A stretch of DNA of 29,365 nt from a virus. Positions 1,440-28,719 of this stretch are shown piece after piece (the first letter of the stretch is position 1; every line of letters starts with the position of its first letter). The stretch lies in the UHGV virus genome UHGV-0335882; one strand, 5' to 3'. The translations under genes and the position numbers were made by a program. The notes under the pieces were generated by a model. The model saw only the letters and a program-made list of their open reading frames with translations, was not told the DNA's origin and made no database searches.

Positions 1440-3997
1440 CGTCCACCTCCGGAGAACAGGCCACCATCACGCATCTGTGTCTGAATTTCATCACGGGCAC
1501 CCTTGCGGGCCATGTCATACACCGCCTTCAGAGCAGCCGGACCTATCTGCCCGTTCGTGCCGTCGTTGTTAATCACCACATGGTTATTCTGCTCAAACGT
1601 CCCGGACGCCTGCGACCGGCTGTCTGCCATGCTGCCCGGTGTACCGACATAACCGCCGGTGGCATAGCCGCGCATCAGCCGGTAAAGATTCCCCACGCCA
1701 ATCCGGCTGGTTGCCTCCTTCGTGAAGACAAACTCACCACGGTGAACAATCCCCGCTGGCTCATATTTGCCGCCGGTTCCCGTAAATCCTCCGGTTGCAA
1801 AATGGAATTTCGCCGCAGCGGCCTGAATGGCTGTACCGCCTGACGCGGATGCGCCGCCACCAACAGCCCCGCCAATGGCGCTGCCGATACTCCCGACAAT
1901 CCCCACCATTGCCTGCTTAAGCAGAATTTCTGTCATCATGGACAGCACGGAACGGGTGAAGCTGCGCCAGTTCTGCTCACTGCCGGTCAGCATCGCCGCC
2001 ATATTCTGTGCAATACCATCAAAGGTCTGCGTGGCTGCACTTTTTACCTGCGACATACTGTCCGTGGCGCTCTCTTCCCACTCACTCCAGCCGGACTTCA
2101 GGCCTGCCATCCAGTTCCCGCGAAGCTGGTCTTCAGCCGCCCAGGTCTTTTTCTGCTCTGACATGACGTTATTCAGCGCCAGCGGATTATCGCCATACTG
2201 TTCCTTCAGGCGCTGTTCCGTGGCTTCCCGTTCTGCCTGCCGGTCAGTCAGCCCCCGGCTTTTCGCATCAATGGCGGCCCGTTTTGCCCGTTGCTGCTGT
2301 GCGAATTTATCCGCCTGCTGCGCCAGCGCGTTCAGGCGCTCCTGATACGTAACCTTGTCGCCAAGTGCAGCCAGCTGGCGTTTGTACTCCAGCGTCTCAT
2401 CTTTATGCGCCAGCAGGGATTTCTCCTGTACAGACAGCTGGCGACGTTGCGCCGCCTCCTCCAGTACCGCGAACTGACTCTCCGCCTTCCACAAATCCCG
2501 GCGCTGCTGGCTGATTTTCTCATTTGCTCCGGCATGCTTCTCCAGCGTCCGGAGTTCAGCCTGAAGCGTCAGCAGGGCAGCATGAGCACTGTCTTCCTGA
2601 CGATCGCCCGCAGACACCTTCACGCCGGACTGCTTCGGCTTTTTCAGTGTCGTTTCATAGTCCTTTTTCGCTGCCGCCATCAGCGTGTTGTAATCTGCCT
2701 GCAGGATTTTTCCGTCTTTCAGGGCCTTATTCAGTTCTTCCTGACGGGCGGCATATTTCTCCAGCGGCGTCTGCAGCCGTTCGTAAGCCTTCTGCGCCTC
2801 TTCGGTATATTTCAGCCGTGACGCTTCGGTATCGCTCTGCTGCTGCGCATTTTTGTCCTGTTGACTCTGCTGTTCAGCCTTCTTTCGGGCGGCTTCAAGC
2901 GCAAGACGGGCCTTTTCACGATCATCCCAGTAACGCGCCCGCGCTTCATCGTTAACAAAATAATCATCCTTGCGCAGATTCCAGATGTCGTCTGCTTTCT
3001 TAAACGCAGCCTCTGCCTTAATCAGCATCTCCTGCGCGGTATCAGGACGACCAATATCCAGCACCGCATCCCACATGGATTTGAATGCCCGCGCAGTCCT
3101 GTCTGCCCAGGTCTCCAGCGTGCCCATGTTCTCTTTCAGGCGGCGGGTCTGGTCATCAAACCCTTTCGTTGCGGCCTCGTTCGCCGCCTGCAATGCCCCG
3201 GCTTCATCGCCGGAACGCTGCAACTGAGCAACATACGCAATCTGCTCCGCCGTCACGTTATGGAACTGGCGTGCCATCGCCGTCAGCCCCGACGTCGGGT
3301 CTGTGGTCAGCTTCCCGAAGGCTTCAGCGACCTTGTCCACCTCCACGCCGGATGCAGAGGAGAAACGCGCCACACTCTGGCTGATGGACGCAATCTGAGC
3401 CTCACCGCTTACCCCCGCCTTAACCAGTGCGCTGAGTGACTCGCTGGTCTGGTTAAACGTCAGCCCTGCCGCCTGCCCGGCTCTGGACAGGACCAGCATA
3501 CGATCTGCCGTCAGACCCGCCTGATTGCCGGAAAGGACCAGCGTTTTGTTGAAATCGGACAGGGTTGAGTTGCCCTGATACCAGGCATACGCCAGCGCAC
3601 CGGTCGCCACCGCCAGCGAGGTGGCCCCCACCATCGGCAGGGTGATCGCACCGGCAAGCCCCCTGAACATGGGGATCATCCCGCCGAAGGAGTCCTTCAC
3701 CTGCCCCCCCTGTTGCAGCAGGATCAGCCACGGACTTTGCCCGCCTGCAAGCTGCGTGGCCACGTCGGTGAACTGTGCAGGCAGCATACGCATGGCGGCT
3801 TTATACTGCCCGACGGAAATCCCCGCTTTCTGTGCAGCCAGCGCCTGTCGGCTCAGCGACTGTTCAACGACTGCCGCTGTTTTTTTCGCATCACTTTCCG
3901 TACCGGAAAAATGACGCCTGACTCTGGCCATCTGCTCGTCAAATCTGGCCGCATCCAGACTCAAATCAACGACCAGATCGCCTACCGGTTCAGCCAT
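1436..3997 (-). CDS. H: Tail tape measure protein H
   Basis: 853-aa ORF, same length as lambda gpH and near-identical along its length (MAEPVGDLVVDLSLDAARFDEQMARV... ...MRDGGLFSGGGR). Confidence 0.95.
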   Translation of the reverse strand: MAEPVGDLVVDLSLDAARFDEQMARVRRHFSGTESDAKKTAAVVEQSLSRQALAAQKAGISVGQYKAAMRMLPAQFTDVATQLAGGQSPWLILLQQGGQVKDSFGGMIPMFRGLAGAITLPMVGATSLAVATGALAYAWYQGNSTLSDFNKTLVLSGNQAGLTADRMLVLSRAGQAAGLTFNQTSESLSALVKAGVSGEAQIASISQSVARFSSASGVEVDKVAEAFGKLTTDPTSGLTAMARQFHNVTAEQIAYVAQLQRSGDEAGALQAANEAATKGFDDQTRRLKENMGTLETWADRTARAFKSMWDAVLDIGRPDTAQEMLIKAEAAFKKADDIWNLRKDDYFVNDEARARYWDDREKARLALEAARKKAEQQSQQDKNAQQQSDTEASRLKYTEEAQKAYERLQTPLEKYAARQEELNKALKDGKILQADYNTLMAAAKKDYETTLKKPKQSGVKVSAGDRQEDSAHAALLTLQAELRTLEKHAGANEKISQQRRDLWKAESQFAVLEEAAQRRQLSVQEKSLLAHKDETLEYKRQLAALGDKVTYQERLNALAQQADKFAQQQRAKRAAIDAKSRGLTDRQAEREATEQRLKEQYGDNPLALNNVMSEQKKTWAAEDQLRGNWMAGLKSGWSEWEESATDSMSQVKSAATQTFDGIAQNMAAMLTGSEQNWRSFTRSVLSMMTEILLKQAMVGIVGSIGSAIGGAVGGGASASGGTAIQAAAAKFHFATGGFTGTGGKYEPAGIVHRGEFVFTKEATSRIGVGNLYRLMRGYATGGYVGTPGSMADSRSQASGTFEQNNHVVINNDGTNGQIGPAALKAVYDMARKGARDEIQTQMRDGGLFSGGGR

Positions 3998-4828
3998 ACC
4001 GGACTCCTCCTGCGATCCCTTCTGATACTGTCATCAGCATTACGTCATCCTCCGTCATGTCCGCCACATCCGGGGAAGCGGGGATAACTTCATTCCCGTC
4101 CGGGCCAAAGCGGACACCTCCGGCAAGCCCTGCCGCTTTCTGCATCAGCACATCATCTTCAGGCTCTTCGTCAGCCTCGCGCCGGTTCAGCAGACTGAAA
4201 TCCAGCGGATGCATATCCGGATCGCTGAAAAACAGGCTGAGCACGGTGTACGTCAGCCCGGAAAAGTGCATATCCAGCAGAACATCATGAAAATAATGGG
4301 TACTGTAAAAGCGGTGCCAGTCGGCATACTCCGTGGATGACATCCCGGCAAGCATGGCACGCCAGTCGGGTCGCCCCATCTCACGCGCCAGTTTCAGGGC
4401 AAAACTCAGCTCACCGTCGAACACTTTCCCGCAGAAACAGGCTCTGCAGGCCCGGCGTCCTCTGCCTGTTCGGGGGCATTATTCACCACAAACTCATACA
4501 TACCGGACAGCCGGTACACCACGTTTTCAGCATGAGAAATTGCCTCTGTGGGCCAGGTGGTAAGCACTTCCTGCTCAATCTGTTTAACGGCTTCATTCAT
4601 GGACGGCATCTGCGTCTTCTTCGGATGGTTATGCCACAGGGACATCGCCACCAGAAACGCGCCGGTTCTGATGACGTCTTCCACAGTAACCTGCCGGTTG
4701 CTGTCGGATCCCGCCGGTTCTGCCTGCCGTTTCATCAGGGCAAGATGCTCAATACGCTGCAGGGCTGACAGTTCAGAAAGCGTGACGGTCACGCCGTTAT
4801 ATTCAAATGATTCGGTTTTCAGGAACAT
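3990..4828 (-). CDS. T: Tail assembly chaperone G-T fusion made by -1 programmed ribosomal frameshift (G frame 4828..4424, then T frame 4430..3990)
   Basis: T-frame ORF (FDGELSFALKLAREMGRPDW...) matches lambda gpT and overlaps the 3' end of G in the -1 frame. Slippery heptamer G GGA AAG is present at the overlap. Confidence 0.85.
4406..4828 (-). CDS. G: Tail assembly chaperone G
   Basis: 140-aa ORF (MFLKTESFEYNGVTVTLSELSALQRIEHLALMKRQ...) matches lambda gpG. Confidence 0.93.
   Translation of the reverse strand: MFLKTESFEYNGVTVTLSELSALQRIEHLALMKRQAEPAGSDSNRQVTVEDVIRTGAFLVAMSLWHNHPKKTQMPSMNEAVKQIEQEVLTTWPTEAISHAENVVYRLSGMYEFVVNNAPEQAEDAGPAEPVSAGKCSTVS
4424..4430 (-). other. -1 programmed frameshift slippery site G GGA AAG (G to G-T)
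   Basis: Minus-strand heptamer GGGAAAG, with GGA and AAG as zero-frame codons of G (…S A G K C S T V S stop). The -1 frame continues into the T ORF. Confidence 0.8.
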
Positions 4829-10121: not shown

Positions 10122-13802
<3,681 letters not shown>

Positions 13803-13828
<26 letters not shown>

Positions 13829-14348
13829 TCAGCAACCCCGGTATCAGTTCATCCAGCGCGGCTGCTTTGTTCATGGCTTTGATGATATCCCGTTTCAGGA
13901 AATCAACATGTCGGTTTTCCAGTTCCGGAAAACGCCGCTGCACCGACAGGGGGATCCCGTCGAGAATACTGGCAATTTCACCTGCGATCCGCGACAGCAC
14001 GAAAGTACAGAATGCGGTTTCCACCACTTCAGCGGAGTCTCTGGCATTTTTCAGCTCCTGTGCGTCGGCCTGCGCACGCGTAAGTCGATGGCGTTCGTAC
14101 TCAATAGTCCCTGGCTGGAGATCTGTCTCGCTGGCCTGTCGCAGTTCTTCAACCTCCCGGCGCAGCTTTTCGTTCTCAATTTCAGCATCCCTTTCGGCAT
14201 ACCATTTTATGACGTCGGCAGAGTCATAAAGCACCTCATTACCCTTCCCACCGCCTCGCAGAACGGGCATTCCCTGCTCCTGCCAGTTCTGAATAGTACG
14301 GATACTCGCGCCGAAAATGTCAGCCAGCTGCTTTTTGTTGACTTCCAT
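13803..14348 (-). CDS. Nu1: Terminase small subunit Nu1
   Basis: 181-aa ORF (MEVNKKQLADIFGASIRTIQNWQEQGMPVLRGGGKGNEVLYDSADVIKWY...) matches lambda Nu1; overlaps the A start as in lambda. Confidence 0.95.
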
Positions 14349-14349
14349 T

Positions 14350-14525
14350 GTTCATTCCACGGACAAAAACAGAGAAAGGAAACGACAGAGGCCAAAAAGC
14401 CCGTTTTCAGCACCTGTCGTTTCCTTTCTTTTCAGGGAGTGTTTTAAATAAAAACATTAAGTTACGGCGAAGAAGAACGGAAACGCCTTAAACCGGAAAA
14501 TTTTCATAAATAGCGAAAACCCGCG
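14350..14525 (-). other. cosB, terminase (Nu1) binding region with R-type repeats
   Basis: Reverse complement reads GGGCGGCGACCTCGCGGGTTTTCGCTATTTATGAAAATTTTCCGGTTTAAGGCGTTTCCGTTCTTCTTCG..., near-identical to the lambda left end as recalled. Repeated CGTTTCC/GGAAACG cores at about 14388-14398, 14416-14426 and 14466-14483 resemble lambda R1-R3. Confidence 0.75.
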
Positions 14526-14537
14526 AGGTCGCCGCCC
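14526..14537 (-). other. cosN, 12-nt cohesive-end sequence (GGGCGGCGACCT on the minus strand)
   Basis: Exact lambda cohesive-end 12-mer read on the minus strand, immediately upstream of the cosB-Nu1 region. Confidence 0.85.
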
Positions 14538-14685
14538 CGTAACCTGTTGGATCGACGGAAAGGACCCGAAAACGAGAATAATTATCACTTACAGCAAGAA
14601 TCGAATCTGATCTATTATGGTGCTTGCTATTATGTGCCGGCACAAGTGCGTCGTTTACCGTCATTTCACACAGAGGCATCATCAA

Positions 14686-14937
14686 ATGAAAATCAGAAAT
14701 ATTCTCGCTATCTCCCTTGCGACATCATCCTTCAGTTGCCTGGCATTTAAATCCTCGCCCAATGTGCTACCAGGACCAACGAATCAACTAACTGCGGTAG
14801 AAAGTAAAATTATCGGACATTTTTATGCCCCACACAGTACATTACCCGGAACAACCATCACAGGGACATGTGACGCCTCCCCCGTCCCGGGATGCACCTG
14901 TCCGTTTTGTACTATGCTGCGTAGCCAAAACCGATAA
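14686..14937 (+). CDS. Small secreted protein of unknown function (83 aa, Cys-containing)
   Basis: ATG at 14686 with GAGG 9 nt upstream. N-terminus MKIRNILAISLATSSFSCLA has signal-peptide character; mature part contains a TGTCDASPVPGCTCPFC cysteine cluster. The track ORF (from 14617) extends further 5' without a ribosome-binding site. No recognised family. Confidence 0.5.
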   Translation: MKIRNILAISLATSSFSCLAFKSSPNVLPGPTNQLTAVESKIIGHFYAPHSTLPGTTITGTCDASPVPGCTCPFCTMLRSQNR

Positions 14938-14998
14938 CATCCGCATTTACCTGGTATTCCATGATGAGTTCACGCAGCGACTGATAGAGGAAGGAAAG

Positions 14999-15178
14999 AT
15001 GGTTAGTAAAAGCAAGGCGCATTGCCGCCGCATGCTGCAGGCATTGCAACAGACGAGAGCAGGTATTTTTGACCAGTTGGAAAACTGCCAGCATACTTTG
15101 CCCGAGTATATCGCCATCTCATCGGAAACCAGTGCAACTCTTATTCATCGGGTTCCACCAGAGAAAAAGAAGAAATGA
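14999..15178 (+). CDS. Small hypothetical protein (59 aa, basic C-terminus)
   Basis: ATG at 14999 preceded by a strong GAGGAAGGA Shine-Dalgarno; in frame with track ORF 14825..15178 but starting after the stop of the upstream gene. Function unknown. Confidence 0.35.
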   Translation: MVSKSKAHCRRMLQALQQTRAGIFDQLENCQHTLPEYIAISSETSATLIHRVPPEKKKK

Positions 15179-15184
15179 ACAGTG

Positions 15185-15209
15185 AGGCGTTGTGTGGCAT
15201 ACAACGCCT
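15185..15209. terminator. Hairpin between convergent genes (AGGCGTTGT / loop 7 nt / ACAACGCCT)
   Basis: 9-bp perfect inverted repeat located between the plus-strand ORF ending at 15178 and the minus-strand lipoprotein gene ending at 15301; followed by TCTTCC on the plus strand. Confidence 0.4.
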
Positions 15210-15300
15210 TCTTCCATCATTCCTCGTCAGCCATGACAAAAATATAACCGCTGGCTCTTTCATTTTTCTCCTGCTTCCAGCCCCTCTCTACCTGGAAGCA

Positions 15301-15627
15301 TCAAGGACGTGACGGCGTAAAGATAAATTGTCTCTTCACTCCCTGACAGGGGCGATTCTTTTCAAATCGCCATTTCGCCATGGCCTTCACCACTTCATCA
15401 CGAAACAAATTATGAGGCTCTGAGCGGAGAAAAACGATCCGTGTCACAGTCCCATCAGCACCAATATCGAACTTAACCTCAACCAGCCCCTTGATATAAT
15501 TTGCTGCAGCATATTCCGGATATCGTGGATACACCGTCACTAATTGCCGGGGCTCATCAGCTTTTTGCTGCGAGCATCCCACTGCCAGGACAGATAACAG
15601 AAAAAGTAGTAAAAGGCGTCTTTTCAT
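15301..15627 (-). CDS. Lipoprotein with TonB C-terminal-like domain (108 aa)
   Basis: Start at internal ATG (15627): MKRRLLLLFLLSVLAVGCSQQ is a lipoprotein signal with lipobox LAVGC. Remainder aligns with the E. coli TonB C-terminal domain as recalled (GLVEVKFDIGADGTV...LFRDEVVKAMAKWRFEKNRP vs GQVKVKFDVTPDGRV...MFEREVKNAMRRWRYEPGKP). Confidence 0.8.
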   Translation of the reverse strand: MKRRLLLLFLLSVLAVGCSQQKADEPRQLVTVYPRYPEYAAANYIKGLVEVKFDIGADGTVTRIVFLRSEPHNLFRDEVVKAMAKWRFEKNRPCQGVKRQFIFTPSRP

Positions 15628-16092
15628 TTTTATTCCTACGGGTCTTATTCTGACAATATATCCTGTGTTCCAGACTGCCACATCACCACATCCTGTGCCA
15701 TTATCTGACTCACATTACATACATCGCATCGGGATACAGTAGTAGCACTTTCTGTAATACAGCTTCCTGTTTCTTCCACCATCGCACCGGGATAAACCCG
15801 CGAATCATTAACGCGGTAAAAACCCGGTGTGCATCGTTTTTAATTATTCCCGCACACTCACGCAGAAGGAATTCCCCGTCGGGCTACGGTCATGGTTAAT
15901 GCGGGAATACGGCGACGATACAGCGCAGCTAAAAGGGTAATGGACGGATAGACCGGTTTATTTCATTCCACAGGATTCTGAGTGTCCCCAACTTCCTCCA
16001 ATAGTCTGAGCCCACCTGTGTAGTTTTAATTTTCATCAATCCATTTAACTATCGTTTAATTGTTGTCACATAGGATTCTGCCGTTTTTAACA

Positions 16093-16236
16093 ATGCAGGA
16101 TAATAAGATGAAAAAAATGTTGTTTTCTGCCGCTCTGAGTCTGTTGTCGGCATTCTGGCAATGCAATTTGGATAAAGCGGGGATTAAAAAGATAGAGGCG
16201 AGCCGGTCAGGTAGAAATGAATCAGGCTCAAAGTGA
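16093..16236 (+). pseudogene. 5' stump of a bor/iss-family lipoprotein gene (first ~15 codons conserved, then unrelated sequence to a stop)
   Basis: Translation MQDNKMKKMLFSAAL... matches the N-terminus of Iss/Bor-family proteins as recalled. The lipobox (LITGC) and the rest of the protein are missing; the frame runs into unrelated sequence and stops after 47 codons. Position and orientation match where bor sits relative to cos in lambda. Confidence 0.6.
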
Positions 16237-16528
16237 AGCGGAAAAGGTCTGTGGCACAAGCTGATGCAGCCATAATTACAGCCTGATGATTTGTGGAATG
16301 AAACATGTTGAACCTCCTTAATTGATGTTATTCGAGTGATGAAGGCATTCTGTCCTTCTATAGTGTCCAGTAAATCAAACAGGAAACTTGTCCAACGTGT
16401 TGGACAAGCCTCTCCATTAGTGAGTTGTATTGATCACAACTCTACAAAGAATTCATTACTGGGTAGATGAAAATAGTTTCACTATGAATGGAGGAGGCTA
16501 TGTCGGTGGCTTCTTCATTGGAGTACAT

Positions 16529-16879
16529 ATGCCCCCACGAATCCCACGCGCCTGCCGTAAGCGTGGATGTGCAGGTACAACCACAGACAGTTCTGGTTAC
16601 TGCGATAAACATCGTGGCGAAGGATGGGTACAGCATCAACGCGGACTGAGCCGCCACCAGCGTGGCTATGGCTCGAAATGGGATGCCATACGTGCGCGCA
16701 TACTGAAGCGTGATAATCATCTGTGTCAGAACTGCCTGCGCAATGGGAGAGCCGTTGAAGCCAGAACTGTGGACCACATCATTCCGAAAGCTCATGGTGG
16801 CACGGATGCAGACAGTAACCTGCAGAGTCTGTGCTGGCCCTGTCATAAAGCAAAAACAGCGCGCGAACGCATCAATTGA
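16529..16879 (+). CDS. HNH endonuclease (terminase-associated, 116 aa)
   Basis: C-terminal HNH motif (CQNCLRNGRAVEARTVDHIIPKAHGGTDADSNLQSLCWPCHKAKT) with Cys-rich N-terminal part. Start set at ATG 16529 with GGAG 5 nt upstream; the track ORF starts further 5' at a TTG. Sits directly upstream of the terminase genes, as in HK97-type cos phages. Confidence 0.85.
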   Translation: MPPRIPRACRKRGCAGTTTDSSGYCDKHRGEGWVQHQRGLSRHQRGYGSKWDAIRARILKRDNHLCQNCLRNGRAVEARTVDHIIPKAHGGTDADSNLQSLCWPCHKAKTARERIN

Positions 16880-17026
16880 TAACAGTTCCCATCTGTAGGG
16901 GAGGGGCAGGCCAAATCTCTGCAACCCTGGCTGCTCAGTACCGCCGCCTGACCTTTCCTCGCATCGCCGCAGGTTCGAAAACTTTTTTTTGGAATGTGAT
17001 TAAATGATTGATAGGTAAAACCGATT
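16880..17026 (+). other. Intergenic region between HNH and small terminase; candidate cos site of the HK97-type module
   Basis: 147-bp non-coding gap at the position where HK97-type phages carry cos. Contains GC-rich motifs (GGGGAGGGGCAGG; CCGCCGCCTGACC, the latter resembling the CGCCGCC core of lambda cosN). Exact cut site not determinable by eye. Confidence 0.35.
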
Positions 17027-17509
17027 ATGTCTGGACCCCCGAAAACCCCGCCACGCCTGCATTTGATACGAGGCAACCCCTCAAAGCGGCCAGTTAAAGA
17101 CCTCAAAAAAACCGCTAAAAAGGATGAAAAAGGTCTCCCTAAAATTCCGCAACATTTAGGGGCGCAGGGGAAGTACTGGTTCAGGCGAATGGCGGAAGAG
17201 CTGAATGCGGAAGGGATCATTTCTCAGCTTGATGCGCGTGCGCTTGAGCTACTGGTGGAAGCCTATACCGAATACCGGCATCACTGCGAAACACTCGATG
17301 TTGAGGGGTACACCTACCGCTCGAAAACGCAGAACGGTGATGTGCTGATTAAGGCACACCCGGCTGCTGCGATGAAAGCGGATGCCTGGAAGCGGATCCG
17401 GGCGATGCTTGCAGAATTTGGTATGTCACCGGCAAGCCGGGCAAAAGTAAATACCGCCGGACCGGATAATGTTGATCCGCTGGCAGAGCTTTTAAAAGCG
17501 AGAGACTGA
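17027..17509 (+). CDS. Terminase small subunit (P27 family)
   Basis: 160-aa ORF with basic N-terminus and the C-terminal FGMSPASRAKV motif typical of the P27 family; immediately upstream of and overlapping the large terminase. Confidence 0.9.
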   Translation: MSGPPKTPPRLHLIRGNPSKRPVKDLKKTAKKDEKGLPKIPQHLGAQGKYWFRRMAEELNAEGIISQLDARALELLVEAYTEYRHHCETLDVEGYTYRSKTQNGDVLIKAHPAAAMKADAWKRIRAMLAEFGMSPASRAKVNTAGPDNVDPLAELLKARD

Positions 17510-24012: not shown

Positions 24013-24036
24013 ACCCGCCGCTGGCGGGTTTTTTTA
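24013..24036 (+). terminator. Terminator-like hairpin before the major tail gene (ACCCGCC-GCT-GGCGGGT followed by T7)
   Basis: 7-bp GC stem with a 3-nt loop followed by a T-run, in the 60-nt gap before the major tail protein start codon. Confidence 0.5.
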
Positions 24037-24052: not shown

Positions 24053-24757
24053 ATGTCCTCTAATTTTGAGCGTTCGCAACTGACGAAAATTATGATTTCG
24101 TCTGCACCGGTAACAGCAGAAACCCTGGATTCTGCCAGCTATCTTGGCCTGAGCTGTACAATCAAAGAGGTGCAGTTTACCGCAGGACAAAAGCAGGATA
24201 TTGATGTCACCACGCTGTGTTCTGTTGAGCAGGAAAATATTAACGGTCTTGGTGCCGCGTCAGAGATTTCCATGTCAGGCAACTTTTATCTGAATGCTGC
24301 CCAGAACGCGTTGCGCAGTGCCTATGACAATGACACCACGTATGGCTTTAAAGTTATTTTTCCGTCAGGCAACGGATTTACCTTTATGGCAGAGGTGCGT
24401 CAGCATACCTGGTCTGCAGGAACCAATGGTGTTGTGGCTGCAACGTTTTCCTTGCGCCTGAAAGGTAAACCTGTGCTGACGACAGAGCCGCTGAAAGTGA
24501 AGGCCGATTTAAAAAGCACGCTGCGGGTTGCTTCCGGAGCGAAACTTGAAATGGCGGTTGAGGCTGCGGGTGGTGTGCCGCCTTATTCTTATGTCTGGAA
24601 GAAAGGTGGTTCTCCTGTTTCCGGACAGACGGCGGCAACGTTCAGTAAGGCATCGGCAGTATCCGGTGATGCGGGTGCATATACCTGCGAGATTTCTGAT
24701 TCAGCAAGCCCGGTTAACAAAGTGACCTCCACTTCCTGCACTGTAACCGTCAGTTAA
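24053..24757 (+). CDS. Major tail protein with C-terminal Ig-like domain
   Basis: 234-aa ORF following the neck genes with a GGAG ribosome-binding site. C-terminal ~85 aa (…GGVPPYSYVWKKGGSPVSGQTAATFSKASAVSGDAGAYTCEISDSASPVNKVTSTSCTVTVS) has immunoglobulin-like sequence character. Confidence 0.8.
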   Translation: MSSNFERSQLTKIMISSAPVTAETLDSASYLGLSCTIKEVQFTAGQKQDIDVTTLCSVEQENINGLGAASEISMSGNFYLNAAQNALRSAYDNDTTYGFKVIFPSGNGFTFMAEVRQHTWSAGTNGVVAATFSLRLKGKPVLTTEPLKVKADLKSTLRVASGAKLEMAVEAAGGVPPYSYVWKKGGSPVSGQTAATFSKASAVSGDAGAYTCEISDSASPVNKVTSTSCTVTVS

Positions 24758-24771
24758 TGAGGATGGATGTG

Positions 24772-25143
24772 ATGACTAAAAATATCCGTAATCTGGCACT
24801 GGCAACGATGTCGGGGTTTCGCCATAAAACCGTTGATGTGCCTGAATGGGAGGGAGCAACGGTTGTGTTACGGGAACCTTCTGCAGAAGCCTGGTTGCGC
24901 TGGCAGGAGATCGTTAAAGCAAAAGATGATGAGACACCGTTATCCGTTGCGGAGCGCGCCCGCCGAAATCTGGAGGCAGATGTTGAACTGTTCATTGATG
25001 TTCTGTGTGATACCGGACTGCAACCCGTATTTTCAGAGGATGATCGTGAACAGGTGATTGCCGTGTATGGCCCGGTGCATGCGCGGCTTCTTCGGCAGTC
25101 TCTGGAACTGATCAGTGATGCCGGCGAGGTTAAAAAAAAGTAG
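24772..25143 (+). CDS. Tail assembly chaperone (gpG-like)
   Basis: ORF between major tail and tape measure genes, acidic, ending …DAGEVKKK. Start at ATG 24772 with GAGGA 8 nt upstream; an alternative ATG at 24757 overlaps the upstream stop. Confidence 0.75.
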   Translation: MTKNIRNLALATMSGFRHKTVDVPEWEGATVVLREPSAEAWLRWQEIVKAKDDETPLSVAERARRNLEADVELFIDVLCDTGLQPVFSEDDREQVIAVYGPVHARLLRQSLELISDAGEVKKK

Positions 25144-25445
25144 CGCTTCCGGGGATGCGTTTTCTGATGATGCTGGCGCTCAGGATGGGGCGCACATTGT
25201 CAGAGTTACGCCGGGAAATGTCCGCATCAGAAATCATGATGTGGGCAGAATTTGACAGGTTCAGCCCGCTGGGGGACGAACGGGCTGATATCCGGGCTGC
25301 CCAGATTGTTTCAGCTGTTTACGGTGCGCAGGGGGTCAAAGTGCCACTGAATGATGCGCTTCTTCAGTGGGAGAAGGAGCAGACAGAAGGCGTATCAGAT
25401 CCATTTGCCGGACTGGAAAACGCGCTTTTAATAGTGTCTCAGTGA
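24772..25445 (+). CDS. Predicted tail chaperone frameshift fusion (gpGT-like), -1 shift at A AAA AAG
   Basis: Downstream ORF (…MRFLMMLALRMGRTLSELRREMSASEIMMWAEF…) is in the -1 frame and has no separate ribosome-binding site; slippery heptamer A AAA AAG sits at the end of the upstream chaperone frame. Confidence 0.6.
25134..25140 (+). other. Putative -1 programmed frameshift slippery heptamer A AAA AAG
   Basis: AAA (25135-25137) and AAG (25138-25140) are the last two sense codons of the chaperone zero frame; the -1 frame continues open for 101 codons to the stop at 25443-25445. Confidence 0.6.
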
Positions 25446-25453
25446 GTCAACAT

Positions 25454-25476
25454 AACCGCTTCGGCGGTTTTTTTTC
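25454..25476 (+). terminator. Terminator-like hairpin before the tape measure gene (AACCGC-TTCG-GCGGTT followed by T8)
   Basis: 6-bp stem with a UUCG-type tetraloop followed by an 8-T run, between the chaperone-T stop and the tape measure start. Confidence 0.55.
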
Positions 25477-25485
25477 GTCCGGAGA

Positions 25486-28400
25486 ATGAGTGTGGCGACA
25501 TTACGTGAACTGATTATTAAAATCTCGGCAAATTCCCGGTCATTCCAGTCAGAGATCTCCCGGGCTTCGCGTATGGGGCAGGATTACTACCGTACCATGC
25601 AGAACGGAGGCCGGCAGTCCGCTGCTGCATCCCGTGAAATGCGGCGTGCACTGGCAGAAGTGACGGATCAGATAAATACAGCTAAATCTTCGGCACTGAA
25701 TATGGCGGGGGCATTTGCCGGGGCTTTTGCTACCGGTCATCTTATTTCTTTCGCCGATGAGTGGAATTCAGTAAATGCCCGTCTGAAGCAGGCCTCACAG
25801 TCCAGTGATGATTTTCAGGCATCACAGCGTGAATTAATGGCGATCAGCCAGAGAACGGGGACGGCGTTTTCTGATAACGCCAGCCTTTTTGCCCGTTCTG
25901 CAGCTTCCATGCGGGAGTATGGTTACAGTTCTGAGGAGGTACTGAAAGTCACCGAGGCGATCTCCACGGGCCTGAAATTATCCGGTGCCAGTACAGCAGA
26001 AGCCAGTTCGGTGATCACGCAGTTCAGTCAGGCACTGGCGCAGGGAGTGCTGCGCGGTGAAGAGTTTAACTCGGTGAATGAGAACGGCGATCGTGTTATT
26101 CGTGCGCTGGCTGCGGGAGTGGGGGTTGCCCGTAAGGATCTGAAGGCCATGGCGGATAACGGAAAGTTGACCGCCGATAAGGTTGTTCCTGCACTGATTA
26201 GTCAGCTTGGGGCATTACGTGATGAATATGCGGCAATGCCTGATACGGTTTCATCCTCTGCAACCAAAGTTGAAAACGCCTTTATGGCCTGGGTTGGTGG
26301 TGCGAACGAGGCAAGCGGAGTGACGAAGACGCTCTCCGGTGTGCTGAATGGTATTGCAGGCAATATTGACACTGTGGCAACCGCTGCCGGTGCTCTGGTT
26401 GCCGTCGGGGTAGCCCGATATTTTGGCAATATGGCGTCTTCTGCTGGATCTGCAACTGCCGGATTAATTACTGCAGCCAGAAACGAAGTGGCTCTTGCGG
26501 AAGCGCAGCTCCGGGGGACACAGATAGCAACAGCCAGGGCGCGTGCGGCGGTTTATCGTGCGCAACAGGCGGTTGTTGCTGCTCGCGGTACCGAAAGGCA
26601 GGCAGCCGCAGAAGCGAAACTGGCTGCTGCCCAGGCATCACTTACCCGTAATATTGCGGCCAGAACAGCAGCACAGACAACGCTGAATACTGTCACGTCA
26701 GTGGGAAGTCGTCTGTTAAGTGGAGCACTGGGACTGGTTGGTGGGGTGCCGGGGCTTGTCATGCTGGGGGCCGCGGCCTGGTACACGATGTATCAGAATC
26801 AGGAGCAGGCCAGAGAATCTGCACGCCAGTATGCCGCAAAAATCGACGAAATTCGCCAGAAAACGTCGGCAATGTCGCTTCCTGAAGCGTCAGATAATGA
26901 GGAAAAGACGCGGCAGGCACTTGATGAGCAAAACAGGTTAATTGACGAGCAGAAAAGTAAGATTAAATCCTTACAGGAAAAAATTGCTGGCTATCAGTAT
27001 GTGCTGGCAAACCCGGGCTGGACAACCGATAACGGTTTTATGATTAACCACATGACGTCGGTAAAAACAGTCACAGAAGGGCTTGCAGAAGCAACAAATC
27101 AACTGGCAGTTGAACAGTCCCGTCTCACACAAATGCAGGGCAAAGCGCAATCCATTCAGGATGTGCTTGCCGGGCTGGAGGAGCGGCGGGTTGCGTTGAT
27201 CCGTCAACAGGCGGCGGAACAAAACAAAGCGTATCAGTCCCTGTTGATCATGAATGGGCAGCATACCGAGTTTAATCGCCTTCTTGGGCTTGGTAATGAA
27301 TTACTTCAGCAGCGACAGGGGCTGGTGAATGTACCGTTACGGCTACCACAGGCAACCCTGGATGATAAACAGCAGACCGCACTGAATAACAGCAAGCGCG
27401 AACTGGCTCTGTCCCGCCTTAAGGGGGAAGCGCGTGAGCGTGCCCGACTGGGCTATGCTGCGGATGATCTCGGCTTTGTGGGAGAGGCGTATCAGACAGC
27501 CAGACAGAATTATATCAATAACTCACTGGATGCCTGGCGAAATAACCAGGCAAATAAACCCAAAGCGCATAAAAAGACCGAAGCGGAAAAAACAGAAGAT
27601 ATTTATAAACGGCTGATTAAACAGCAAAAAGAACAGATAGCACTGGCAGGGCAGAATACTGAACTGGCTAAGATGAAATATCAGGTCAGTCAGGGCGAAT
27701 TATCAACCCTGTCAGAAGCGCAGAAAAAAACGCTTTTGCAGAATGCAGCACTCATCGACCAGAAAAAGATTCGTGAGCAGCTTGCTGCGTATGAAAGCAG
27801 CCTGGCGGACAGTAATGCCAGTACCCGGGCGTCTAACGACGCGCAGTTACTGGGATATGGTGAAGGCTCACGGATGCGTGAACGACTCCAGGAAATGTGG
27901 AGTATCCGGCATGAGTTTGAGCAGAAAAATAACGAGCTGCTGAGACAGTATCAGGCCGGAGAAATTGAAGAAGCCCTGTGGAAACAGGAGAAAGAACTGA
28001 ATAAAAAATATCTGGAAGAGCGTCTCAGCGATCAGCAGGATTATTATGCAAAGGCCGATGCTTTACGTAATAACTGGAATGCAGGACTCCAGGAGGGGCT
28101 GACCAACTGGGCAGACAGTGCCACCGATTATGCTTCGCAGGCGGCAGATGCTGTCGTTTCCACTATGGACGGGCTGGTATCAAATATTTCCGATGCGCTG
28201 GCCGGAAATGTTGTGGACTGGAGAAACTGGGGGAGTTCAATTCTCCAGGAAGTTTCAAAAATTCTGATGAATGCGGCCATTGTTAACGGACTGAAGTCAC
28301 TCTCCGGTGCCGGAGGGTGGCTTGGTACGGTCGGCGGATGGATTTCGGGGGCGGTGGCAAACGCAAAAGGTGGTGTTTACACATCGGCAAATCTGAGTGC

Positions 28401-28719
28401 TTACAGTAACACTATTGTGGATACACCGACGTATTTTGCTTTTGCGAAAGGTGCCGGGCTGATGGGCGAGGCCGGGCCTGAAGCTATCATGCCACTGACA
28501 CGGGCAGCGGACGGCTCTCTTGGGGTCAGAGCCATTGGCAATGTGAATAGTGGCGGGGGGGTTGTTTATTCTCCCGTGTATCACATCAGCATTCAGAATC
28601 AAGGGAGCAATGGCGAGATAGATGCGCGCTCAGCCAGGGGACTGGTGGATCTGATCGACAGCAGGGTTGTGTCAATTATGCAGTCATCGCGTCGGGATGG
28701 AGGATTGTACAGTGCCTGA
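25486..28719 (+). CDS. Tail tape measure protein (1077 aa)
   Basis: Very long, Ala/Gln-rich, coiled-coil-like ORF after the chaperone pair. C-terminal region (NWNAGLQEGLTNWADSATDYASQ…GGLYSA) parallels the lambda gpH C-terminus (NWMAGLKSGWSEWEESATDSMSQ…GGLFSGGGR). Confidence 0.93.
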   Translation: MSVATLRELIIKISANSRSFQSEISRASRMGQDYYRTMQNGGRQSAAASREMRRALAEVTDQINTAKSSALNMAGAFAGAFATGHLISFADEWNSVNARLKQASQSSDDFQASQRELMAISQRTGTAFSDNASLFARSAASMREYGYSSEEVLKVTEAISTGLKLSGASTAEASSVITQFSQALAQGVLRGEEFNSVNENGDRVIRALAAGVGVARKDLKAMADNGKLTADKVVPALISQLGALRDEYAAMPDTVSSSATKVENAFMAWVGGANEASGVTKTLSGVLNGIAGNIDTVATAAGALVAVGVARYFGNMASSAGSATAGLITAARNEVALAEAQLRGTQIATARARAAVYRAQQAVVAARGTERQAAAEAKLAAAQASLTRNIAARTAAQTTLNTVTSVGSRLLSGALGLVGGVPGLVMLGAAAWYTMYQNQEQARESARQYAAKIDEIRQKTSAMSLPEASDNEEKTRQALDEQNRLIDEQKSKIKSLQEKIAGYQYVLANPGWTTDNGFMINHMTSVKTVTEGLAEATNQLAVEQSRLTQMQGKAQSIQDVLAGLEERRVALIRQQAAEQNKAYQSLLIMNGQHTEFNRLLGLGNELLQQRQGLVNVPLRLPQATLDDKQQTALNNSKRELALSRLKGEARERARLGYAADDLGFVGEAYQTARQNYINNSLDAWRNNQANKPKAHKKTEAEKTEDIYKRLIKQQKEQIALAGQNTELAKMKYQVSQGELSTLSEAQKKTLLQNAALIDQKKIREQLAAYESSLADSNASTRASNDAQLLGYGEGSRMRERLQEMWSIRHEFEQKNNELLRQYQAGEIEEALWKQEKELNKKYLEERLSDQQDYYAKADALRNNWNAGLQEGLTNWADSATDYASQAADAVVSTMDGLVSNISDALAGNVVDWRNWGSSILQEVSKILMNAAIVNGLKSLSGAGGWLGTVGGWISGAVANAKGGVYTSANLSAYSNTIVDTPTYFAFAKGAGLMGEAGPEAIMPLTRAADGSLGVRAIGNVNSGGGVVYSPVYHISIQNQGSNGEIDARSARGLVDLIDSRVVSIMQSSRRDGGLYSA

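What the first reader, a model, noticed from the sequence alone, without database searches (positions are those of the whole stretch)
25134..25140. Predicted -1 programmed frameshift (A AAA AAG) in the tail chaperone pair of the HK97-type module
The chaperone ORF ends …GEVKKK-stop. The heptamer A AAA AAG lies exactly at its 3' end, and the -1 frame continues for about 100 codons (through MRFLMMLALR… to 25445) with no ribosome-binding site of its own. This mirrors the conserved G/G-T frameshift upstream of tape measure genes and supports the gene calls. A UUCG-loop hairpin with a U-run follows immediately (25454-25476).
Basis: partly seen in the sequence, partly recalled or inferred. Interest (0 to 1): 0.45.

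Follow-up and report, generated by a model that had tools for sequence, protein, structure and literature searches.

The report
Tail chaperone G/GT -1 frameshift site
This is the well-known programmed -1 ribosomal frameshift that lets a tailed phage make two tail-assembly chaperones (G and the longer G-T fusion) from one gene pair; the instance here is real and conserved but ordinary, and public genome annotation mostly misses it.

Summary
A AAA AAG (25134-25140) is in X_XXY_YYZ phase as the last two codons of a 123-aa tail assembly chaperone (24772-25143, PF06222), followed directly by TAG. The -1 frame is closed by TAA at 25131-25133. It then runs 101 codons to 25445 and encodes a lambda gpT-family domain (PF06223). 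The two frames overlap by only 10 nt, which is the heptamer plus the stop.

The predicted 224-aa fusion matches a PHROG family of fused proteins in one unbroken stretch. Among 46 relatives at 43-70% identity, T is in the -1 frame in 43. All 43 keep a zero-frame A_AAG in the overlap (A_AAA_AAG in 30). In 13 relatives with no start codon before the invariant Met10 of T, the intervening codons still evolve as -1-frame coding sequence.

Phages HK544 and HK106 annotate the homologous pair as a programmed frameshift. Sakai ECs1801 (68% identical, same AAAAAAG-TAG junction) is listed as a true case by Sharma et al. 2014. No conserved stimulatory RNA structure was found. RefSeq annotates T as a separate gene in the E. 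coli records inspected (about 900 genomes carry the pair).

Verdict: an already known mechanism and family, of low interest apart from the annotation fix.

The parts
24053..24757 (+). Major tail (tube) protein gene with an in-frame C-terminal Ig-like domain; upstream neighbour of the chaperone pair
   Evidence: phrog_158 major tail protein, E=1.9e-109. Pfam gives one Ig-domain hit above its cut-off (Ig_2) plus sub-threshold Ig and tail tube hits.
24772..25143 (+). G-type tail assembly chaperone gene (123 aa, 13.9 kDa), HK97-type family PF06222; the zero-frame product
   Evidence: PF06222 E=2.7e-58 with the match starting at the residue encoded at 24772. SD GAGGA, -7.9 kcal/mol. PGAP makes the same call, WP_000164661.1. 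Mass.
25131..25133 (+). TAA stop in the -1 (T) frame; it closes the T frame immediately upstream of the heptamer
25134..25140 (+). Slippery heptamer A AAA AAG in X_XXY_YYZ phase of G (part of an A8 run, 25132-25139)
   Evidence: Conserved as A_AAA_AAG in 31 of 44 family loci, and the A_AAG core in 44 of 44. AAG is used at the site in 41 of 41 distinct contexts, against a 32% AAG background.
25141..25143 (+). TAG stop of G, directly 3' of the heptamer (possible 'shifty stop' context)
   Evidence: A stop directly follows AAG in 31 of 44 family loci.
25140..25445 (+). T segment read in the -1 frame (101 codons plus stop). Predicted GT product = join(24772..25140, 25140..25445), 224 aa, 25.2 kDa
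   Evidence: PF06223 E=4e-19. The fusion hits phrog_14766 over 1-220 of 224 positions in a single stretch, 309 bits. The -1-frame coding signature starts right after the heptamer. Mass.
25454..25475 (+). Terminator-like hairpin (AACCGC TTCG GCGGTT) plus T8 run, between T and the tape measure gene
   Evidence: HK544 and HK106 annotate a rho-independent terminator just upstream of the tape measure gene, there after an extra gp15-like gene. A hairpin plus T-run lies within 40 nt of the T stop in 8 of 44 family loci, counting the window itself.
25486..28719 (+). Tape measure protein gene (HK97 type); the start is either ATG 25486 or GTG 25492
   Evidence: PF06120 E=4e-92, PF20155 and PF09718. SD spacing favours GTG 25492, which is also the PGAP choice.

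Best explanation
This is a programmed -1 ribosomal frameshift of the phage G/GT tail-assembly-chaperone type.

Most ribosomes translating the chaperone gene (24772-25143) terminate at UAG and release the 123-aa G protein. A small fraction, expected to be in the low-percent range, slip back one nucleotide on A_AAA_AAG. E. coli has a single tRNA-Lys, which pairs better with AAA than with AAG. It re-pairs from AAA-AAG to AAA-AAA, either as a P-site plus A-site tandem slip, or as a P-site slip on A_AAG while the UAG waits in the A site. Decoding then resumes at GUA (25140-25142). The ribosome continues for 101 codons in the -1 frame and produces a 224-aa G-T fusion, ...GEVKKK-VALPGMRF....

By homology with lambda, G and the G part of GT coat the tape measure protein. 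The T part recruits the major tail protein so that the tube polymerises to the correct length. Neither G nor GT ends up in the virion.

Shown here: the anatomy of the site, the protein families, gene order, conservation of the site and of the frame arrangement, and the -1-frame coding signature upstream of any start codon.

Inferred: that slippage happens in this particular prophage, its efficiency, and the roles of the two proteins.
For: 1. Anatomy. The heptamer is in phase, and the overlap of the two frames is exactly 10 nt, bounded by TAA (T frame) and TAG (G frame).

2. Families and synteny. PF06222 chaperone, PF06223 gpT domain, flanked by the major tail protein gene and an HK97-type tape measure gene.

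3. Fusion product. The predicted fusion is colinear with fused family phrog_14766 over 1-220 of 224 positions, 309 bits.

4. Conservation. Of 46 relatives at 43-70% identity from more than 20 genera, T is in the -1 frame in 43. All 44 loci with that arrangement (including the window) keep a zero-frame A_AAG in the overlap: A_AAA_AAG in 31, G_GAA_AAG in 6, R_GCA_AAG plus stop in 7. The site codon is AAG in 41 of 41 distinct contexts, whereas Lys codons elsewhere in these genes are 32% AAG.

5. Codon periodicity. It switches from the G frame to the -1 frame at the heptamer.

6. Translation without a start codon. In 13 distinct loci with no ATG, GTG or TTG in the T frame before the invariant Met10, linker codons 3-9 have third-position entropy 1.19 against 0.28 and 0.39. 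Differing codon pairs are 57% synonymous in the T frame, against 16% and 0% in the other frames. P4, T6, F7, F8 and L9 are invariant. That stretch can only be translated by ribosomes arriving from G.

7. No conserved SD for T. Mean -2.3 kcal/mol at Met10, against about -5 for G starts.

8. Comparison with lambda. Its experimentally established site G_GGA_AAG uses the same AAG codon. T decoding resumes at the G of AAG, and the conserved Phe of T lies 8 codons later in both phages. The review PMC5009743 summarises Levin 1993 and Xu 2004, 2013 and 2014.

9. Curated precedent. HK544 and HK106 join the homologous pair as a 'programmed frameshift'.

10. Literature precedent for this heptamer. ECs1801 is 68% identical with the same AAAAAAG-TAG junction. 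It represents cluster A_AAA_AAG_25, 'tail assembly chaperone [true]', in Sharma et al. 2014.

11. Intrinsic efficiency. A_AAA_AAG and G_GGA_AAG shift almost equally in E. coli reporters: 0.29, 4.3 and 39% against 0.28, 3.8 and 43%.
Against: There is no experimental observation for this prophage.

The window has ATG codons in the T frame at 25155 and 25167/25170. ATG 25167 is invariant in the family and is the PGAP start. It is preceded in this window by a weak GGGGA (-5.7 kcal/mol, 11 nt), so some free T made by initiation or reinitiation cannot be excluded.

No conserved 3' stimulatory structure or well-spaced 5' SD was found. The bare heptamer gave only about 0.3% shifting in one reporter context, so the real efficiency is unknown.

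The A8 run could also allow some RNA polymerase slippage, which would yield the same protein.

The comparative counts are not phylogenetically independent.
Confidence: 0.88

Rival explanations
1. T is an independent gene, as RefSeq annotates it. It would be translated from its own start (ATG 25155 or 25167), either by de novo initiation or by termination-reinitiation after the G stop codon, and no fusion protein would be needed.
For: PGAP calls T separately from ATG 25167 in every E. coli record inspected, out of about 900 genomes that carry the pair. Met10 (ATG 25167) is invariant in 37 of 37 aligned relatives. The window has a weak GGGGA 11 nt upstream of it. ATG 25155 lies only 11 nt after the G stop, a distance compatible with reinitiation. 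In one clade the G stop overlaps Met10 as TGATG, a classic coupling arrangement (sequences).
Against: There is no conserved SD before Met10 (mean -2.3 kcal/mol, zero in several loci). ATG at linker position 6 is present in only 13 of 37 loci. Residues upstream of Met10 (P4, F8, L9) are conserved, with synonymous variation in the -1 frame, even in 13 loci that have no start codon there. The slip core A_AAG and the -1 phase would have no reason to be conserved in 44 of 44 loci under this model. The full-length fusion matches a family of fused proteins. In lambda, T is made only as GT (review PMC5009743).
Confidence: 0.06
2. The fusion is made mainly by transcriptional slippage. RNA polymerase stutters on the A8 run and adds one A to a fraction of mRNAs, and standard translation of those mRNAs gives the same G-T protein.
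For: The site sits in a run of 8 A (25132-25139). An mRNA with one extra A would encode exactly ...GEVKKKVALPG... (my reading of the sequence). Efficient bacterial RNAP slippage is documented on runs of 9 A or T (PMC5009743). Homopolymer-length variants of this run appear in some raw assemblies (P0001, P0004).
Against: The run is one base short of the 9 for which the review documents efficient slippage. Family members keep the same G/-1 T arrangement with runs of only 3 A (7 loci), 4 A (6 loci) or 7 A (19 loci), where polymerase slippage is not expected, and the final G of A_AAG is invariant. That G matters for tRNA-Lys re-pairing but not for polymerase stuttering. Lambda's proven site G_GGA_AAG has no long run.
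Confidence: 0.05
3. The frame break is a mutation or sequencing error in a homopolymer: a pseudogenised, originally single G-T ORF with no recoding.
For: Homopolymers are error-prone. A few database entries show in-frame fusions (P0001 to P0003) or other frames (P0004). 3 of 46 relatives have aberrant frames (L094, L103, L126).
Against: The A8-G-TAG junction is identical in all 83 independent close copies, and the locus is found in 902 complete E. coli genomes. The two-frame arrangement is conserved in 43 of 46 relatives down to 43% identity. Both halves remain under purifying selection.
Confidence: 0.01

Closest known systems
Phage lambda G / G-T tail assembly chaperones with programmed -1 frameshift at G_GGA_AAG (Levin, Hendrix and Casjens 1993; Xu, Hendrix and Duda 2004, 2013, 2014; as summarised in PMC5009743)
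   Same: Same position between the major tail and tape measure genes. T domain of the same Pfam family, PF06223. Same -1 direction and the same A-site codon, AAG. T decoding resumes at the G of AAG, and the conserved Phe of T lies 8 codons after the shift in both. The two heptamers have nearly identical intrinsic efficiency in E. coli.
   Different: The G part belongs to a different Pfam family: PF06222 here, PF06894 in lambda. The first half of the heptamer is AAA rather than GGA. Here the G stop follows the heptamer directly, whereas in lambda it lies 5 codons downstream. A near-exact lambda-type pair is also present in this same window on the minus strand.
HK97-type G/GT pair as annotated in phages HK544 (NC_019767) and HK106 (JQ086369), 'programmed frameshift', similar to HK97 tail assembly chaperone and Gp14
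   Same: Same G family, PF06222. 61.5% identity over the whole fusion. Fusion of 224 aa. Same neighbours, including the HK97-type tape measure gene and annotated rho-independent terminators before the major tail gene and before the tape measure gene.
   Different: In those phages the in-phase slip sequence is G_GAA_AAG, five codons before the G stop. An extra small gene (gp15-like) lies between T and the tape measure gene.
E. coli O157:H7 Sakai prophage Sp9 ECs1801/ECs1802 and Stx-phage homologues; cluster A_AAA_AAG_25 'tail assembly chaperone [true]' in Sharma et al. 2014 (PMC4066793)
   Same: 68% identical G. Identical junction, agA AAA AAG TAG, with the -1 frame continuing KKVARPEIRFLM. Same gene order.
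   Different: A different prophage lineage, with about 32% amino-acid divergence in G. As here, the genome records still annotate two separate genes.
E. coli dnaX -1 frameshift at A_AAA_AAG
   Same: Identical heptamer and the same tRNA-Lys re-pairing logic (PMC5009743).
   Different: By general knowledge, dnaX relies on an upstream SD-like element about 10 nt away and a strong hairpin about 6 nt downstream, shifts at about 50%, and yields a shorter product. Here no conserved flanking stimulator was found, the only SD-like GAGG is 4 nt upstream, and the shift yields a longer product.

Membership tests
Phage G/GT tail assembly chaperone pair with conserved programmed frameshift (Xu, Hendrix and Duda 2004) | Two overlapping ORFs located between the major tail protein gene and the tape measure protein gene | tested here: met
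   Major tail 24053-24757, G 24772-25143, T 25140-25445, tape measure 25486-28719.
Phage G/GT tail assembly chaperone pair with conserved programmed frameshift (Xu, Hendrix and Duda 2004) | Downstream ORF in the -1 frame, overlapping the 3' end of the upstream ORF, with a slippery sequence in the overlap | tested here: met
   10-nt overlap containing an in-phase A_AAA_AAG. Same arrangement in 43 of 46 relatives.
Phage G/GT tail assembly chaperone pair with conserved programmed frameshift (Xu, Hendrix and Duda 2004) | Downstream ORF lacks its own translation initiation signals | tested here: inconclusive
   There is no conserved SD in the family, and 13 loci have no start codon before Met10. 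However, this window has ATGs at 25155 and 25167 and a weak GGGGA.
Phage G/GT tail assembly chaperone pair with conserved programmed frameshift (Xu, Hendrix and Duda 2004) | Both G and a G-T fusion are produced at a fixed ratio (about 30:1 in lambda), are required for tail assembly, and are absent from virions | not testable with these tools
   Needs protein analysis of induced lysogens. The ratio and roles are taken from PMC5009743.
Pfam PF06223 Phage_tail_T (lambda gpT family) | Sequence match above the Pfam gathering threshold | tested here: met
   69.2 bits against a cut-off of 25.9. Lambda T itself scores 54.1 bits.
Pfam PF06894 Phage_TAC_2 (lambda gpG family) | Sequence match above the Pfam gathering threshold | tested here: not met
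   The window's G matches only PF06222 Phage_TAC_1 (195.7 bits). Lambda G matches PF06894 and HK544 G matches PF06222. So the G half is HK97-type, not lambda-type.
dnaX-type stimulated A_AAA_AAG frameshift cassette | Conserved 3' stem-loop a few nucleotides after the heptamer and a 5' SD-like element about 10 nt upstream | tested here: not met
   RNAalifold predicts no consensus pairs on 36 sequences. The window's own hairpin lies 21 nt downstream, and its outer helix is only 56% paired in relatives, with no covariation beyond controls. The upstream GAGG is 4 nt from the heptamer and is not conserved (alignment).
Transcriptional slippage sites | Homopolymer run of about 9 or more A/T that is conserved as a run | tested here: not met
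   The run is A8 here. Relatives have A3, A4, A6, A7, A8 or A9 with the same frame arrangement. The threshold is taken from PMC5009743.

The most novel reading that the evidence does not exclude
The stop codon placed directly after the heptamer (A_AAA_AAG_UAG), which is found in 31 of 44 family loci but not in lambda or HK544, may be a functional part of the signal, a 'shifty stop'. In that case the shift would occur with tRNA-Lys in the P site while the slowly decoded stop occupies the A site. The G:GT ratio would then be set by competition between release factor (RF1 for UAG) and slippage, which would replace the missing RNA stimulators. Polymerase slippage on the A8 run might add a further contribution.
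Probability: 0.2. Interest if true: 0.35.

Novelty: already known. Interest (0 to 1): 0.13.

Why it matters
The value is mainly practical. The pair occurs in about 900 of 5,426 complete E. coli genomes, including the ST131 strains EC958 and JJ1886. In every RefSeq record inspected, T is annotated as a separate 92-aa gene ('phage tail assembly protein T' or 'DUF4035'), and one phage record splits it into fragments. The most likely product is instead a 224-aa G-T fusion made by recoding.

Correct annotation matters for prophage proteomics, for predicting whether a prophage can build tails, and for gene-finder benchmarks.

Biologically the finding adds nothing new in principle. It does give a clean comparative data set showing that the invariant core of this family's signal is A_AAG in the -1 configuration, with three interchangeable heptamer variants and no conserved RNA stimulator.

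Tried and rejected
1. 3' stimulator. The window folds into a hairpin at 25162-25205 (z = -3.0 for the 161-nt context), but it lies 21 nt from the heptamer. RNAalifold finds no consensus structure in 36 relatives. Pair counting shows no covariation beyond controls; the inner helix simply tracks the conserved ALRMGR codons. Rejected.

2. 5' SD stimulator. GAGG at 25126-25129 is only 4 nt upstream and is not conserved (alignment). Rejected.

3. Viral-contig scan with the G protein. It returned 80 loci that were all 100% identical at protein level. These were useless for conservation analysis and served only as a control for run length.

4. First entropy script. It had an indexing bug that left an empty subset. 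Its entropy output is void, and its A-run lengths are one too low. It was redone. The Lys-codon counts are valid.

5. Enrichment of AAAAAAG in the window as such. Not significant: 7 against 4.1 expected. The argument rests on phase, position and conservation, not on count.

6. Paper search with a term starting with '-' failed and was rerun.

7. Structure prediction and fold search were judged unnecessary, because the sequence-family assignments were unambiguous.

Full report
**Observation**

The window reads ...GCC GGC GAG GTT AAA AAA AAG TAG CGC TTC CGG GGA TGC.... The upstream ORF ends GEVKKK followed by TAG at 25141-25143. The heptamer A AAA AAG at 25134-25140 is in X_XXY_YYZ phase.

The -1 frame is closed by a TAA at 25131-25133. 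It is open from 25134 to the stop at 25443-25445. From the G of AAG (25140) it reads VALPGMRFLMMLALRMGRTL... for 101 codons. The two frames therefore overlap by only 10 nt, which is the heptamer plus the G stop. This heptamer is the only in-phase X_XXY_YYZ motif in the whole chaperone gene.

AAAAAAG is not over-represented in the window: 7 copies against 4.1 expected. However, of the four plus-strand copies only this one is in phase inside an ORF. The A8-G-TAG junction is identical in all 83 independent close copies fetched, so the frame break is not a homopolymer error.

The UUCG-loop hairpin (25454-25469) followed by eight T is also there.

There are two small corrections.
- The chaperone probably starts at ATG 24772, which has a good SD, is where the Pfam match begins, and is the PGAP call. 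ATG 24757 is less likely.
- The T frame is not wholly devoid of initiation signals. It has ATGs at 25155 and 25167/25170 and a weak GGGGA 11 nt before ATG 25167.

**What the genes are**

- The upstream ORF is a tail assembly chaperone (PF06222 Phage_TAC_1, E=2.7e-58).
- The -1-frame ORF carries PF06223 Phage_tail_T, the family of lambda gpT (E=4e-19).
- They lie between a major tail protein gene with an Ig-like C-terminal domain and a tape measure gene of the HK97 type (PF06120).
- Upstream are an HK97-family capsid, a head completion protein, an HK97-gp10-like protein and a gp17-like tail completion protein.

The predicted fusion (123 + 101 = 224 aa, 25.2 kDa) aligns to phrog_14766, a family of annotated fused proteins. 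The alignment is a single stretch covering 1-220 of 224 profile positions, at 309 bits.

**Where it comes from**

The DNA is an E. coli prophage. It is found at 95% identity or better in about 875 of 5,426 complete genomes, and in 902 at any identity. It is 100% identical in the ST131 strains EC958 and JJ1886, in IHE3034 and in others. It is also present in 11 GenBank phage records.

None of the records inspected annotates a slippage join. PGAP calls T as a separate 92-aa protein from ATG 25167. Phage Evi calls it from ATG 25155. One record splits it into two fragments.

**Comparative test**

Using an alignment of diverged G proteins, I fetched 46 loci at 43-70% identity. They come from Enterobacter, Kosakonia, Serratia, Pectobacterium, Morganella, Proteus, Providencia, Pantoea, Yersinia, Orbus and other genera.

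T is in the -1 frame in 43 of them. The three exceptions (L094, L103, L126) look like indels.

All 44 loci with this arrangement (43 relatives plus the window) have a zero-frame A_AAG inside the overlap:
- A_AAA_AAG in 31
- G_GAA_AAG in 6
- R_GCA_AAG followed by a stop in 7

A stop codon follows AAG directly in 31 of the 44. The site codon is AAG in 41 of 41 distinct contexts, although only 32% of the other Lys codons in these genes are AAG.

Codon-position variability switches at the heptamer:
- In the G body, the zero-frame third position is the most variable: entropy 1.56, against 0.67 and 0.76.
- Directly after the site, the -1-frame third position is the most variable: 1.48, against 0.83 and 0.84.
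- The same holds in the T body.

The sharpest test uses 13 distinct loci in which the G stop follows AAG and the T frame has no ATG, GTG or TTG before the invariant Met10:
- Linker codons 3-9 show third-position entropy of 1.19, against 0.28 and 0.39.
- 57% of differing codon pairs are synonymous in the T frame, against 16% and 0% in the other two frames.
- P4, T6, F7, F8 and L9 are invariant.

That stretch is being translated in the -1 frame, and only ribosomes coming from G can do so. The invariant Met10 has no conserved SD: mean -2.3 kcal/mol, against about -5 for G starts.

These counts are not phylogenetically independent, but the pattern holds across clades with different heptamer variants.

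**Comparison with known cases**

*Lambda.* Lambda's own G and T (NC_001416) were read directly. The proven site G_GGA_AAG uses the same AAG codon. T resumes at the G of AAG (GTG in lambda, GTA here). The conserved Phe of T lies 8 codons after the shift in both. Lambda T is in PF06223 like this T, but lambda G is in PF06894, not PF06222. The T half is therefore shared and the G half is HK97-type.

*HK544 and HK106.* The Hendrix-lab records for HK544 and HK106 are 61.5% identical over the fusion. They annotate the homologous pair as a two-piece CDS labelled 'programmed frameshift', 'similar to HK97 tail assembly chaperone / Gp14'. Their in-phase slip sequence is G_GAA_AAG.

*Sakai ECs1801.* Sakai prophage Sp9 gene ECs_1801 is 68% identical to this G and has the identical junction, agA AAA AAG TAG. 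ECs1801 represents cluster A_AAA_AAG_25, 'tail assembly chaperone; [true]', in Supplementary Table S4 of Sharma et al. 2014 (PMC4066793). Stx-converting phages share the same junction.

*Background from the recoding review.* PMC5009743 summarises the biology: lambda gpG and gpGT at a ratio of about 30:1, G binding the tape measure, T binding the major tail protein, and neither present in virions. It also notes that A_AAA_AAG is among the most shift-prone heptamers in E. coli, because the single tRNA-Lys pairs more strongly with AAA than with AAG, and that A_AAG alone can support -1 shifting.

**Mechanistic details**

Sharma's Table S3 gives these -1 frameshifting rates in E. coli reporters:

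| Heptamer | No stimulator | IS911 stimulators | IS3 pseudoknot |
|---|---|---|---|
| A_AAA_AAG | 0.29% | 4.3% | 39% |
| G_GGA_AAG | 0.28% | 3.8% | 43% |

The two heptamers are functionally equivalent.

I found no conserved stimulator. RNAalifold predicts no consensus pairs 3' of the site in 36 sequences. The window's own hairpin (25162-25205) is 21 nt away and is not maintained in relatives. The SD-like GAGG is 4 nt upstream and not conserved.

The one recurrent context feature is the stop codon directly after AAG, in 31 of 44 loci. It may help by leaving the A site slow to be decoded. That idea is untested.

**Rival explanations**

*Independent initiation or reinitiation of T.* This is the RefSeq model. 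It cannot be excluded as a minor route in this window, which has ATGs and a weak GGGGA. It does not explain the conserved slip core, the conserved -1 phase, or the coding signature upstream of any start codon.

*Transcriptional slippage on the A8 run.* This would give the same protein. However, the run is one base short of the 9 for which the review documents efficient slippage. Relatives keep the arrangement with runs of only 3, 4 or 7 A, and always with the terminal G.

*Pseudogene or sequencing error.* This is excluded.

**Verdict**

It is an instance of a textbook, already catalogued recoding event, so interest is low. The useful outcome is an annotation correction: join(24772..25140, 25140..25445) in addition to G. 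A second outcome is a family-level description of the signal: an invariant A_AAG, three heptamer variants, a frequent adjacent stop, and no conserved RNA stimulator.

Noticed in passing
window 3993-4828 (minus strand); slip site 4424-4430 (minus strand): A second G/T pair of the true lambda type lies on the minus strand: G in PF06894 (140 aa), T in PF06223 (144 aa), followed by an 853-aa tape measure gene. It carries the canonical G GGA AAG. The 81 nt around the site differ from phage lambda by one base. The window therefore holds both the experimentally proven site and the HK97-type site.
   Followed up: partly
window about 14400-16400; the match to genomes breaks at about 16137: The lambda-type module (minus strand, Nu1 ending at 14348) and the HK97-type module (plus strand, terminase from about 17027) are head to head. 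No complete E. coli genome in the collection contains 13600-17300 in one piece; the best matches stop at about 16137. In strain 4/0 the two modules are about 0.88 Mb apart. The window may span a rearrangement, an assembly join or a composite.
   Followed up: partly
window 24013-24035 and 25454-25475: Two terminator-like hairpins bracket the major-tail/G/T block: ACCCGCC-GCT-GGCGGGT plus a T run before the major tail gene, and AACCGC-TTCG-GCGGTT plus T8 before the tape measure gene. HK544 annotates rho-independent terminators at both corresponding positions, and the HK106 stretch fetched shows the one before the tape measure gene. A hairpin plus T-run lies within 40 nt of the T stop in 8 of 44 family loci, counting the window itself. 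Their role inside a late operon (attenuation of tape-measure expression, or mRNA stabilisation) is unexplained.
   Followed up: partly
window 25486 vs 25492: The tape measure start is ambiguous. ATG 25486 has its SD (GGAG) only 0-2 nt away, whereas GTG 25492 has 6-8 nt spacing. PGAP uses GTG 25492 and phage Evi uses ATG 25486.
   Followed up: no
L084-L086, L095, L098, L102, L130 (HK544), and L096, L099, L107, L110, L111, L113, L114: Family members use non-canonical in-phase slip sequences. G_GAA_AAG (P-site tRNA-Glu would re-pair to GGA) is found in the HK97/HK544 clade. R_GCA_AAG directly followed by TAA leaves only the A_AAG tetramer slippery. This suggests that single-tRNA-Lys slippage is the conserved core of the signal.
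   Followed up: partly
L097, L106, L112, L115, L121, L123: In one clade G continues 8 codons past A_AAA_AAG, and its TGA stop overlaps the invariant Met10 ATG of T as TGATG, a classic translational-coupling arrangement. That clade could in principle make free T as well as GT.
   Followed up: no
proteins P0001-P0004: A few metagenome and Logan assemblies encode in-frame G-T fusions or other-frame read-throughs. P0001 lacks one Lys (an A7 run). P0004 continues in the third reading frame (neither G's nor T's). P0002 has a deletion (about 11 nt) that removes the stop. P0003 is fused through an out-of-frame stretch. These are most likely homopolymer or assembly errors or rare mutants. No read-level data were available.
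   Followed up: no
RefSeq and GenBank records: There is a systematic annotation gap. T is called as a separate gene ('phage tail assembly protein T' or 'DUF4035 domain-containing protein') in every RefSeq E. coli record inspected, out of about 900 genomes that carry the pair. The same is true in the Stx-phage and Sakai records. In phage vB_EcoM-606R7, T is split into two overlapping 'tail assembly chaperone' fragments.
   Followed up: yes
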